Shown one piece after another: positions 35,301-38,300 of a stretch of 64,000 bases of DNA (positions are counted from its first letter, which is position 1; the number at the start of each line of letters is the position of its first letter). The position numbers are program-made. Location of the stretch: assembly GCF_988243305.1 (NCBI RefSeq), contig NZ_OZ547136.1, one strand, 5' to 3'.

Positions 35301-38300
35301 ACAATGTCGCGGCTGGTGAGTAACCAGCCGCAGGGGTGATTATCAGGCAACCTGTACCGGAATGGCTTTCGCGGTACGTTTCATTTCGTTGTCGCCTTCA
35401 AAATAGGCGACGTTGGGCCGCCAGGTGCGAGCTTCTTCATCTGGCATGGTAACGAAGCTGGCGATGATGACAATATCGCCGACGCTGGCGCAGTGGGCCG
35501 CCGCACCGTTAACGGAAATAATTCTCGAACCGCGTTCTGCCGCGATGGCATAAGTGGAGAAACGCTTGCCGTTGGTGACATTCCAGATATCAATGGCTTC
35601 GTTTTCGAGAATACCGGCTGCGTCAAGAAAATCCTGGTCAATGGCGCAAGAACCTTCATAGTGCAGGTCCGCATGAGTCACTTTCACGCGGTGGAGTTTG
35701 CCCTGCAGCATCGTGCGAATCATAACTTCTACCTTTCTACCCTGTCGTTAACGAAGCAGGCGATGCCTGCTTTGAGGAAATTCTCACGCAGTATTGCCCG
35801 ATTTTTGTTTAGTGTCTACTCATCTGACGGCATTTGCATCAGCAGTTTGCGTACCGTGCCGAAGCGTGCCATGTAACGCCTGTAACCAATTGAAATTTCT
35901 CTGAACGCTGCTCGGTAAACAATAAAGAGGCGGCTGACGACGGCGCGCCTTGACTGGATACTGCCTTCACGCAAGACAACACGGAAGGCAGGGAAGATGG
36001 ATGCACCGAGTACCACACCGCATGACGCGGTATTTAAACAATTTTTAATGCATGCGGAAACGGCTCGTGACTTTCTGGATATCCATTTGCCAGCGGAACT
36101 ACGCGAACTGTGTGACCTCGACACGCTGCATCTTGAGTCGGGGAGTTTTATTGAAGAAAGCCTGAAAGGGCACAGCACTGACGTGCTCTATTCCGTGCAA
36201 ATGCAGGGTAATCCCGGTTATTTGCATGTGGTGATTGAACATCAAAGCAAGCCGGATAAGAAAATGGCCTTTCGCATGATGCGTTATTCTATTGCTGCCA
36301 TGCACCGGCATCTGGAGGCGGATCACGATAAGCTGCCGCTGGTGGTGCCGATTCTGTTTTATCAGGGCGAGGCCACACCTTATCCGCTCTCAATGTGCTG
36401 GTTTGATATGTTTTACTCGCCGGAGCTGGCGCGACGCGTTTACAACAACCCTTTCCCGCTGGTGGATATCACCATCACACCGGATGACGAAATCATGCAG
36501 CATCGGCGGATTGCGATTCTCGAACTACTGCAAAAACATATTCGCCAGCGCGACTTAATGTTATTGCTGGAGCAACTGGTCACGCTGATTGACGAAGGGT
36601 ACACTAGCGGAAGTCAGTTAGTTGCCATGCAAAACTATATGCTGCAACGCGGTCATACTGAACAAGCGGATTTGTTTTATGGTGTGCTGAGAGACAGGGA
36701 AACGGGAGGGGAGTCTATGATGACGCTGGCGCAGTGGTTTGAAGAGAGGGGAAGACAGGAAGGAAGACAGGAGGTAAGACAAGAGGTAAGACAAGAGGTA
36801 AGACAAGAGGTAATACAGGAAGTAACACAGGAAGTAAGTCAGGAATTCGCCCAGCGTCTTCTGAGTAAAGGAATGTCTCGGGAAGACGTTGCAGAGATGG
36901 CAAATTTACCCCTTGCCGAGATTGATAAGCTGATTAACTAAGTTGTCTGCATCATCAGTTATAGCCAGATAATTGTTATTGTTAACTGACCAGATAATTA
37001 AGGGAACCTATGGAAATAAAGACACGGAGAGAAACCAGGCAGACGTTGGCGCAGTGGTTTGAAGAGAAGGGATTTCAGAAGGGATTTCAGAAGGGATATA
37101 AAGAGGGACTCCGGAAGGTAAGGCTGGCACAGCGTCTTCTGAGTAAAGGAATGTCTCGGGAAGACGTTGCAGAGATGGCAACTTTATCTCTTACAGAGGT
37201 TGATAAGCTAATTAACTCTAACTAAGTTGTCTGCGTTATGAATTATCGCTTACAGATAACGTGGCAATGAATAACTGGCGCCATCAGCCGTAGCGCCAGT
37301 TAAGTATTACACCAGCTCGACTATTTTGTTGTCGATCAGGCGGGCATCGCCAAGCCAGGCGGCTACCAGAATCACTGCACGTTTGCTGTTTTCAGAGACC
37401 TCCAGCAAGGTGTCGGCATCACGAATCTGAATATCATCGGCGCGGAAGCCTTTTTCATTCAGTTCTTGCCCGGCAATAGTAATAATTTCATCGAGATCCC
37501 GTTCGCCAGCCTGCAATTTGTCGGCAATCGAACTTAAAACCTTGTACAGACCAGGCGCAATTTTGCGTTGTTCCGCCGTCAGATAACCGTTACGGGAACT
37601 CAGCGCCAGACCGTCTTTGGCGCGCATAATTGGCACACCGACAATCTCAATATCAAAGCCCATATCAGCAACCATTTTGCGGATCAGCGCCAGTTGCTGA
37701 AAATCTTTTTCACCGAAGCAGGCGATGTCCGGCTGGACCAGATTGAACAGCTTGCTGACGATAGTCGAAACGCCGCGAAAATGTCCCGGACGGCTGGCAC
37801 CTTCCAGCATGGTAGAAAGACCGGGAACATCAACATAGGTGTGGGTTTCTGTACCGTTCGGGTAGATCTCTTTTACCGAAGGGGCGAAAACTAAATCCAC
37901 TTTGCGCTTGTTCAGCTTTTCGCAGTCCTCTTGCAAGGTCCGTGGATAACGTGCCAGATCTTCCGGGCGGTCGAACTGCATCGGGTTAACGAAAATACTG
38001 ACGACGACCACATCGGCGCGGGCTTTGGCTTCGTCGACCAGCTTCATATGGCCGTCGTGCAGGTTACCCATGGTGGGCACCAGCGCCACGCGCTTACCTT
38101 CCATACGCAGGCGGCGGATTTGCTGACGCAGCAGCGGCAGGGTTTCGATAATTAACACAACGTCACTCCTTAATGGAAACTGTGTTCTTCGCCCGGATAA
38201 ACGCCGGACTCCACTTCAGCCATATACTGCCGCACAGCCGCGCGGATGTCGCCCGTTTCGGCGAGGAAATTTTTGGCGAATTTAGGAATATGACCGCCGG

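What the first reader, a model, noticed from the sequence alone, without database searches (positions are those of the whole stretch)
36720..37235. Hypervariable 12-nt repeat and duplicated C-terminal tail module at rpnC
The 3' region of rpnC holds about 8 tandem 12-nt units encoding RQEG/RQEV repeats. About 70 bp downstream is a separate 71-aa ORF (37010-37225) that re-encodes an Rpn-like C-terminal tail (TLAQWFEE...AQRLLSKGMSREDVAEMATLSLTEVDKLIN) with a different repeat flavour (KGFQKGFQKGYKEG). Three nucleotide blocks are shared between the two copies (gcgcagtggtttgaagaga, gcgtcttctgagtaaaggaatgtctcgggaagacgttgcagagatggcaa, gataagctgattaactaagttgtctgc). Rpn proteins are recombination-promoting nucleases, and their C-terminal domains have been proposed to act as separately expressed antitoxin-like modules. 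An extra free-standing tail copy could be a spare or variant antitoxin, or a recombination scar.
Basis: partly seen in the sequence, partly recalled or inferred. Interest (0 to 1): 0.55.

Follow-up and report, generated by a model that had tools for sequence, protein, structure and literature searches.

The report
Known rpnC antitoxin tail duplicate (rpnCSs)
The repeat-rich end of the E. coli rpnC nuclease gene and the small gene behind it that re-encodes that end are both real, but they were already described in 2023 as the RpnC toxin, its internal antitoxin RpnCS and a stand-alone extra copy, rpnCSs.

Summary
rpnC (35997-36941, +) ends in a 12-nt array (36752-36845, 7.8 copies). A 71-aa ORF (37010-37225, +) lies 68 bp downstream and re-encodes the Rpn C-terminal tail with a different, shorter repeat.

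This is published biology. Zhong et al. 2023 (PMC10400941) showed that Rpn tails are translated separately from an internal start as RpnS antitoxins, and that their 4-aa repeat number is hypervariable and sets partner specificity. They also reported that some E. coli strains carry a second copy, rpnCSs, downstream of rpnC.

What I add:
- The rpnCSs-specific DNA is in 1555 of 5426 complete E. coli genomes, and in E. marmotae at the same position.
- The ORF is intact in all 46 two-copy loci read.
- The helix-1 linkers of the two copies differ in length in 24 of 25 distinct pairs (by 14 residues in the window).
- The single tail of K-12 is orthologous to the downstream copy (97.5% identity), so tails are replaced by fusion.

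The function of RpnCSs has not been tested. It is probably a non-cognate RpnS variant and recombination substrate, not a spare antitoxin.

Novelty: already known. Interest: low.

The parts
35997..36941 (+). rpnC (full-length RpnCL), 314 aa, PD-(D/E)XK YhgA-like nuclease with a C-terminal tail
   Evidence: ORF. Pfam PF04754 Transposase_31, residues 7-207, E=3.3e-87. NCBIfam TIGR01784 at 280.5 bits, cut-off 52.1. RefSeq annotates it as rpnC in a 100% identical genome.
36704..36722 (+). Internal ribosome-binding site GGGAGGGGAG (36704-36713) and in-frame ATG ATG (36717-36722): the internal start site for RpnCS
   Evidence: Sequence. It is identical to K-12, where ribosome profiling and SPA tagging detected RpnCS (PMC10400941). 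In this strain the start site is inferred by identity.
36717..36941 (+). rpnCS, gene-within-gene antitoxin, 74 aa (MMTLAQWFEERGRQEG...DKLIN)
   Evidence: Translation. NCBIfam TIGR01784 C-terminal positions 218-273, E=2.9e-11.
36752..36845 (+). Hypervariable 12-nt (4-aa) tandem array in helix 1 of RpnCL/RpnCS, 7.8 copies
   Evidence: Tandem Repeats Finder. Units listed. Across strains the linker between QWFEE and KGMSRED runs from 16 to 56 residues.
36849..36939 (+). Conserved 3' block (helices 2-3, AQRLLSKGMSREDVAEMANLPLAEIDKLIN), upstream copy of the 91-nt duplicate
   Evidence: Repeat family D2; 91% identical to 37127-37217.
36942..37009 (+). Spacer between rpnC and rpnCSs. It has no terminator, a 10-nt direct repeat CCAGATAATT (36965-36974 and 36990-36999), and the ribosome-binding site AAGGGA at 37000-37005.
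   Evidence: Sequence. The RNA fold is not better than shuffles, z=-0.36. No sigma-70-like promoter was found. No homology to the rest of rpnC beyond chance.
37010..37225 (+). rpnCSs, stand-alone RpnS paralogue, 71 aa
   Evidence: ORF. 55% identical to the RpnC tail, E=6e-24. TIGR01784 C-terminus E=2.7e-10, below the family cut-off. RefSeq WP_000404121.1, named 'RpnC/YadD family protein' or 'hypothetical protein'. Named rpnCSs in PMC10400941.
37065..37097 (+). Second 12-nt array (AGAAGGGATTTC, 2.8 copies; KGFQ KGFQ KGY..) in helix 1 of RpnCSs
   Evidence: Tandem Repeats Finder. Copy number and repeat type vary among alleles, with linkers of 12-32 residues.
37127..37217 (+). Downstream copy of the conserved 3' block
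   Evidence: Repeat family D2.
37272..37302 (.). GC-rich hairpin (ACTGGCGCC...GCGCCAGT) between rpnCSs and the convergent panC; probably a shared terminator
   Evidence: Fold at -27.8 kcal/mol, z=-3.1. In K-12 the same hairpin directly follows rpnC.

Best explanation
This is the chromosomal rpnC toxin-antitoxin / candidate phage-defence locus of E. coli, in its two-tail form.

Shown here or in the literature:
- rpnC encodes the RpnCL nuclease.
- An internal ribosome-binding site and ATG (36704-36722) give RpnCS, the C-terminal tail made as a separate small protein. This tail binds the same domain in RpnCL and blocks it.
- The 12-nt array encodes 4-aa repeats that lengthen the first helix, which is the dimerisation helix. 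Repeat number sets which long and short forms can pair, and it changes quickly, presumably by slippage or unequal exchange.
- The 71-aa ORF is rpnCSs, a separate downstream copy of that tail with its own ribosome-binding site and ATG.

Inferred:
- rpnCSs is co-transcribed with rpnC/rpnCS, because no terminator separates them and the ancestral rpnC hairpin follows it.
- It is translated into a helical RpnS-like module.
- Its helix-1 linker is 14 residues shorter than that of RpnCL/RpnCS in this strain and of a different repeat type. It is therefore probably not the working antitoxin of the adjacent RpnCL. More likely it is a variant RpnS with its own pairing specificity.

Shown here on evolution: the two copies exchange sequence, and the downstream copy can become the tail of rpnC by deletion-fusion across the shared TLAQWFEE block. 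The single tail of K-12 arose this way.
For: Identity:
- Context, domains and annotation.
- The internal start site is identical to K-12.
- Published experiments cover RpnCS expression, RpnS antitoxin activity (demonstrated for RpnA, RpnB and RpnP2), 4-aa repeat hypervariability, the +1-repeat specificity test on RpnC, and the existence of rpnCSs (PMC10400941).

rpnCSs is a maintained gene:
- Its unique 96 nt occur in 1555 of 5426 complete E. coli genomes, at least 95% identical in 1553 of them, always on the chromosome.
- The exact 71-aa protein is listed in 12,019 blocks of the assembly index.
- The ORF is intact, with the same ATG, in all 46 two-copy loci, which give 25 distinct allele pairs.
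- E. marmotae has the same panD-rpnC-rpnCSs-panC layout.

Hypervariability:
- With an identical rpnCSs allele, rpnC is 306, 310 or 314 aa in E. coli, and 314 or 330 aa in E. marmotae.
- RpnCS linkers span 16-56 residues.

Non-cognate pairing: linker lengths differ in 24 of 25 distinct pairs.

Exchange and fusion:
- The K-12 tail plus its 3' flank is 232/238 identical to the downstream copy of a two-copy locus (L046), against 132/149 to that locus's upstream copy.
- The K-12-type repeat KGIEKGIQQG and the ending KVINLI occur in rpnCSs alleles.

Fold: the AlphaFold model has a long helix (residues 6-45) followed by two short helices.

Transcription: no terminator lies between the genes, and a strong hairpin follows rpnCSs.
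Against: - Translation of RpnCSs has not been shown anywhere I could find. The paper tagged only RpnESs/YpaA, because K-12 lacks rpnCSs.
- No promoter of its own was detected.
- In the conserved parts, pN/pS among rpnCSs alleles is about 0.82, against about 0.13 for rpnCS. The sample is small (9 and 3 alleles). This would also fit relaxed constraint.
- The Pfam-A scan gave no significant hit for the 71-aa protein. The TIGR01784 hit is below that family's cut-off.
- The structure model has only moderate confidence (pLDDT 72). Foldseek found no significant PDB match, and RpnAS did not appear among the hits.
- One allele pair (L032/L034) has equal linker lengths, 32 and 32, so length mismatch is not a rule.
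Confidence: 0.85

Rival explanations
1. The 71-aa ORF is a cognate back-up antitoxin. RpnCSs binds the adjacent RpnCL and adds to RpnCS in keeping the nuclease off.
For: - It is a close paralogue of RpnCS, with identical TLAQWFEE and KGMSREDVAEMA segments.
- It is probably co-transcribed.
- The analogous RpnESs (YpaA) is expressed in K-12.
- One allele pair has equal linker length (L032/L034).
Against: - The linker is 26 residues against 40 in the window, and differs in 24 of 25 distinct pairs. The difference is often not a multiple of 4.
- A change of one 4-aa repeat abolishes RpnCS action on RpnCLS (PMC10400941).
- The repeat chemistry also differs: KGFQ against RQEV.
Confidence: 0.15
2. The ORF is a non-functional leftover of a duplication or tail replacement. 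It is carried along because it is short and neutral.
For: - pN/pS is about 0.82 in its conserved parts, against 0.13 for rpnCS.
- It has no promoter of its own.
- It is absent from about 71% of complete E. coli genomes.
- NCBI's annotation pipeline flags it as a pseudogene in several genomes.
- Slippage by 12 nt cannot break the reading frame, so frame preservation across repeat variants is weak evidence of selection.
Against: - There are no stop codons or frameshifts in any of the 46 loci (25 distinct pairs).
- In those 46 loci the E. coli copies keep the first 19 residues (MEIKTRRETRQTLAQWFEE) with only isolated substitutions; the E. marmotae and L032-L035 copies begin MDIK.
- The ribosome-binding site and ATG are retained.
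- The arrangement is shared with E. marmotae.
- The pseudogene flags ('missing N-terminus') are artefacts, because the full ORF is present.
Confidence: 0.15
3. The downstream copy is kept as a donor cassette. Recombination between the shared blocks swaps or fuses tails. This changes the pairing specificity of RpnC faster than repeat slippage alone could.
For: - Repeat types and 3' ends are mosaic between the two positions.
- The K-12 tail is orthologous to the downstream copy, at 97.5% identity through the 3' flank.
- Exact repeats of 19-52 nt flank the variable part.
- Zhong et al. mention loss of rpnSs by fusion, and suggest that RpnL itself may promote such events.
Against: Exchange is shown only on an evolutionary time-scale. 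Nothing shows programmed or frequent switching, or that selection maintains the copy for this purpose. A cassette would not need a conserved ribosome-binding site, ATG and N-terminal peptide.
Confidence: 0.25

Closest known systems
[quoted passage not shown] 2023, PNAS, PMC10400941, Fig. 2I)
   Same: Same locus, same arrangement (rpnC followed by a small separate tail gene) and same 4-aa repeat variation. This is that feature.
   Different: Nothing structural differs. The paper gives no frequency, no length comparison of the two copies and no expression or function test for RpnCSs. Those numbers are added here.
rpnE-ypaA (rpnESs) of E. coli K-12
   Same: A stand-alone RpnS paralogue immediately downstream of its rpn gene. 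The protein was detected by SPA tagging.
   Different: According to the paper's phylogeny it has an independent origin, from RpnE. It is present in K-12, whereas rpnCSs is not.
RpnL/RpnS gene-within-gene toxin-antitoxin systems (RpnA, RpnB, RpnP2)
   Same: A PD-(D/E)XK nuclease whose own C-terminal domain, made from an internal start, is the antitoxin. A hypervariable 4-aa repeat sits in the dimerisation helix.
   Different: Here an additional tail copy lies outside the toxin gene. It therefore does not co-evolve obligatorily with the toxin's tail.
EcoR124I / EcoR124II HsdS TAEL repeats
   Same: The number of a 4-aa (12-nt) repeat in a helix sets specificity. The comparison was made by Zhong et al..
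   Different: That repeat sets the spacing of DNA target recognition in a restriction enzyme, not toxin-antitoxin pairing. The proteins are not homologous.

Membership tests
Rpn / YhgA-like nucleases (PF04754, TIGR01784) | N-terminal YhgA-like PD-(D/E)XK domain | tested here: met
   rpnC residues 7-207 match PF04754 positions 1-201 of 203, E=3.3e-87. TIGR01784 scores 280.5 bits, cut-off 52.1.
RpnS gene-within-gene antitoxin (RpnCS) | In-frame internal ribosome-binding site and start codon upstream of the C-terminal tail | tested here: met
   GGGAGGGGAG-N3-ATGATG at 36704-36722, identical to K-12. The K-12 site has ribosome-profiling and tagging support (PMC10400941).
RpnS gene-within-gene antitoxin (RpnCS) | 4-aa repeats that begin 8-20 residues after the initiating Met and vary in number between strains | tested here: met
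   Repeats start at about residue 11 of RpnCS and about residue 20 of RpnCSs. Linkers span 16-56 residues (RpnCS) and 12-32 residues (RpnCSs) across strains.
RpnS gene-within-gene antitoxin (RpnCS) | Three-helix bundle with a long first helix that forms the dimer interface | tested here: inconclusive
   The AlphaFold model of the 71-aa protein has helices at 6-19, 22-45, 50-56 and 61-69, pLDDT 72. Foldseek against the PDB gave no hit with E<0.3; the top hits were helix-turn-helix domains, and RpnAS was not recovered. A sequence search of the PDB found no Rpn entry.
RpnS gene-within-gene antitoxin (RpnCS) | Blocks toxicity and nuclease activity of the cognate RpnL | not testable with these tools
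   Needs co-expression and in-vitro assays. Published for RpnA, RpnB and RpnP2, and for RpnC in the repeat-swap SOS assay.
RpnSs stand-alone copy (rpnCSs) | A separate ORF directly downstream of an rpn gene, homologous to that gene's own tail | tested here: met
   68 bp after the rpnC stop codon; 55% identical, E=6e-24. The same layout is seen in 46 loci. Beyond the stand-alone alleles, the database hits are RpnC or Rpn-family fragments.
RpnSs stand-alone copy (rpnCSs) | The protein is actually made | not testable with these tools
   Ribosome-binding site AAGGGA and an ATG are present. No expression data for RpnCSs in the paper.
Pfam HTH_Rpn_C (PF27070) / DUF4351 (PF14261) | Significant match to the family profile | tested here: inconclusive
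   The Pfam-A scan available here gave no hit with E<0.01. Precomputed PF27070 hits, marked weak, exist for near-identical alleles. PF14261 was not seen.

The most novel reading that the evidence does not exclude
rpnCSs is not an antitoxin for its neighbour. Instead it is a maintained, expressed 'second specificity'. It would act either as an immunity factor that neutralises incoming non-self Rpn nucleases (from plasmids or phages) whose helix length matches it, or as a donor cassette that lets RpnC switch its pairing specificity by recombination, possibly promoted by RpnC itself. That would make the locus a small diversity-generating system for a defence toxin.
Probability: 0.2. Interest if true: 0.55.

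Novelty: already known. Interest (0 to 1): 0.2.

Why it matters
Rpn systems are a recently recognised toxin-antitoxin and phage-defence family in which the antitoxin is the toxin's own tail. The locus in this window is a textbook instance of the published two-tail form, so the finding is not new.

The open part is what the stand-alone copy does. Its helix length almost never matches that of the adjacent toxin, yet it stays intact in about 29% of complete E. coli genomes and in E. marmotae. If it proved to be a trans-acting immunity factor or a specificity-switching cassette, that would explain how these systems diversify. At present that is only an inference.

Tried and rejected
- Origin of the spacer. 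I looked for homology between the spacer plus the first 11 codons of the small ORF (36942-37042) and the rest of rpnC. Local and global alignments were no better than shuffles, so the origin of this ~100 nt stays unexplained.
- Own promoter. The consensus scan found none in 36400-37400. The only terminator-like hit (37166-37182) lies inside the ORF and is weak.
- Structural RNA. The Rfam scan of the whole window found nothing at the locus. The spacer's fold is not better than shuffles.
- Link to the RpnAS crystal structure. A PDB sequence search gave only a designed repeat protein, 8vd6. Foldseek gave no significant hit.
- Defence-system catalogue. PADLOC-DB 2.0 has no model that matches RpnC or the small ORF, which probably reflects the date of that library.
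- Pseudogene flags. The 'missing N-terminus' flags in RefSeq for six strains (IAI39, CE10, ATCC 25922, Nissle, A13, Santai) were checked and rejected. The full ORF with the same ATG is present in each.
- 'Length never matches'. I considered this as a rule and rejected it after finding L032/L034, where both linkers are 32 residues.
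Full report
**What is there**

The window is E. coli chromosome. panD lies at 35343-35723 (-). It is followed by a 314-aa ORF at 35997-36941 (+), a 71-aa ORF at 37010-37225 (+), and the convergent panC at 37307-38158 (-).

The 314-aa protein is RpnC. It matches Pfam Transposase_31/YhgA-like over residues 7-207 at E=3.3e-87 and TIGR01784 at 280 bits. A 100% identical RefSeq genome, strain 266917_2, annotates it as rpnC and annotates the small ORF as WP_000404121.1.

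Tandem Repeats Finder finds a 12-nt array at 36752-36845 (7.8 copies, 89% matches). It finds a second, perfect 12-nt array at 37065-37097 (2.8 copies) inside the small ORF.

The two tails are 55% identical as protein (E=6e-24). They share a 91-nt block at 91% identity.

The third is shared only with one mismatch and a 6-nt insertion.

**It is already described**

Zhong et al. 2023 (PNAS, PMC10400941) report the following:
- RpnS blocks the toxic full-length nuclease, RpnL.
[quoted passage not shown] These repeats lie in the long first helix, which forms the dimer interface.
- Adding one repeat to RpnCS or to RpnCLS abolishes neutralisation unless both partners carry the extra repeat.
[quoted passage not shown] The authors name this copy rpnCSs. 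It is analogous to ypaA/rpnESs downstream of rpnE.

The window's internal ribosome-binding site and start (GGGAGGGGAG-N3-ATGATG, 36704-36722) are identical to those of K-12. Both halves of the finding, the hypervariable 12-nt repeat and the free-standing tail copy, are therefore published.

**What I could add: distribution**

- A 96-nt probe specific to the spacer and the start of rpnCSs (36950-37045) hits 1555 of 5426 complete E. coli genomes. All hits are chromosomal. Identity is at least 95% in 1553 of them.
- K-12, HS, the O104, O111 and O157 strains and many others have a single tail.
- The exact 71-aa protein is listed in 12,019 blocks of the public assembly index.
- E. marmotae contigs have the same panD-rpnC-rpnCSs-panC order, so the arrangement is old or moves by homologous exchange.

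**What I could add: integrity and variation**

I read 46 loci that have both copies. They came from RefSeq genomes, other NCBI assemblies and metagenomic contigs, and they collapse to 25 distinct allele pairs.
- In all of them rpnCSs is an intact ORF with the same ATG. The E. coli copies keep the first 19 residues, MEIKTRRETRQTLAQWFEE, with only isolated substitutions; the E. marmotae and L032-L035 copies begin MDIK.
- The 'pseudo, missing N-terminus' flags that NCBI's annotation pipeline gives it in six strains (IAI39, CE10, ATCC 25922, Nissle, A13, Santai) are artefacts.
- Repeat number in rpnC varies even among genomes that share an identical rpnCSs allele. RpnC is 306, 310 or 314 aa in E. 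coli, and 314 or 330 aa in E. marmotae.
- Overall, the linker between QWFEE and KGMSRED spans 16-56 residues in RpnCS and 12-32 residues in RpnCSs.

**What I could add: the two copies rarely match**

- In the window the linker is 40 residues in RpnCL/RpnCS and 26 in RpnCSs.
- Across the 25 distinct pairs the lengths differ in 24, by 4 to 32 residues and often not by a multiple of four. The repeat type always differs. Only L032/L034 have equal lengths, 32 and 32.
- A one-repeat mismatch abolishes RpnCS action. I therefore infer that RpnCSs is usually not the working antitoxin of the adjacent RpnCL. This is an inference, not a test.

**What I could add: exchange between the copies**

- Repeat types (KGIE/KGIQ, RQEV, KGFQ, AYQE) and 3' endings (KLIN, KLINSN, KMIN, KVINLI) are distributed mosaically between the upstream and downstream positions.
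- The K-12 rpnC tail plus its 3' flank up to the terminator hairpin is 232/238 identical to the downstream copy of a two-copy locus, L046. It is only 132/149 identical to that locus's upstream copy.
- The single tail of K-12 is therefore orthologous to rpnCSs. It was fused to the nuclease domain across the shared TLAQWFEE block. This documents directly the 'fusion' route mentioned in the paper.

**Expression signals**

- rpnCSs has a ribosome-binding site, AAGGGA, four bases upstream of its ATG.
- No sigma-70-like promoter was found.
- There is no terminator between rpnC and rpnCSs; the spacer fold has z=-0.36.
- A strong hairpin at 37272-37302 follows rpnCSs (z=-3.1). In K-12 the same hairpin follows rpnC directly.
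- Co-transcription with rpnC/rpnCS is thus the likely mode of expression. This is inferred.

**Fold**

An AlphaFold model built on 25 tail sequences has a long helix (6-45, with a break at 20-21) and two short helices. Mean pLDDT is 72. This agrees with the published description of RpnAS. However, Foldseek found nothing significant in the PDB, only helix-turn-helix domains near E of about 0.3-1.

**Constraint**

- In the non-repeat parts, pN/pS is about 0.82 among 9 rpnCSs alleles, against about 0.13 among 3 rpnCS alleles.
- The sample is small and recombination confounds the estimate. It fits either relaxed or diversifying evolution of helices 2-3 of the stand-alone copy.

**Unexplained**

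The ~100 nt made up of the spacer and the first 11 codons of rpnCSs have no detectable homology to rpnC. Their origin is unknown.

**Verdict**

Novelty is 'already known'.
- The residual interest lies in the untested function of RpnCSs. My comparative data argue against both a decaying scar and a simple spare antitoxin. They favour a non-cognate RpnS variant that also serves as raw material for tail replacement.

Noticed in passing
L003, L005, L006, L012, L014, L015 (IAI39, ATCC 25922, Nissle, CE10, Santai, A13): RefSeq annotates rpnCSs as a pseudogene ('incomplete; missing N-terminus') or as 'transposase'. In each of these loci the full ORF with the same ATG and ribosome-binding site is present. 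This is an annotation artefact of protein-homology-based gene calling.
   Followed up: yes
L047:1525-1740 (E. coli O157:H7 RIMD 0509939): O157:H7 has a single rpnC tail. It carries an extra ~190-215 bp between the terminator hairpin and panC. From memory this resembles an ERIC/IRU intergenic repeat (..CCCCAGTCACTTACTTATGTAAGCTCCTGGGGATT..). This was not tested against a consensus.
   Followed up: no
window 36965-36974 and 36990-36999: A 10-nt direct repeat, CCAGATAATT, occurs twice in the rpnC-rpnCSs spacer, 25 nt apart. The second copy ends just before the ribosome-binding site. It could be a junction signature of the event that created the second copy, or a binding site. Not examined further.
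   Followed up: no
window 36942-37042: The spacer and the first 11 codons of rpnCSs (MEIKTRRETRQ) show no homology to rpnC beyond chance. Yet they are at least 95% conserved in all but 2 of the 1555 carrier genomes. Origin unknown.
   Followed up: partly
E. coli genomes: The rpnCSs-specific probe gives 1558 places in 1555 genomes, with up to 3 in one genome. A few genomes therefore carry more than one copy, through either an array of tail genes or a duplication of the region. I did not identify which genomes.
   Followed up: no
window 14879-15741: A 303-nt tandem repeat, 2.8 copies, 79% matches. By its period and its translation-like consensus it is probably the three lipoyl domains of aceF (from memory). 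An ordinary feature.
   Followed up: no
window 18687-19087: A 96-nt tandem repeat, about 3-3.6 copies, 79-87% matches. It presumably lies within a coding region (32-aa repeat). The gene was not identified here.
   Followed up: no
window 12064-12177 (-): Rfam match to the tp2 sRNA (RF02030), 103 bits, full length. This is the only Rfam hit in the window.
   Followed up: no
window 40001-46000: A low-GC stretch (0.415-0.47, against about 0.52 elsewhere) just beyond panB. In the E. marmotae loci the gene after panB has a fimbrial Pfam domain, so this is probably a fimbrial operon.
   Followed up: no
L022-L031; L019-L020: Genomes with an identical rpnCSs protein have rpnC of 306, 310 or 314 aa in E. 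coli, and 314 or 330 aa in E. marmotae. The long upstream array therefore changes copy number much faster than the short downstream one.
   Followed up: partly
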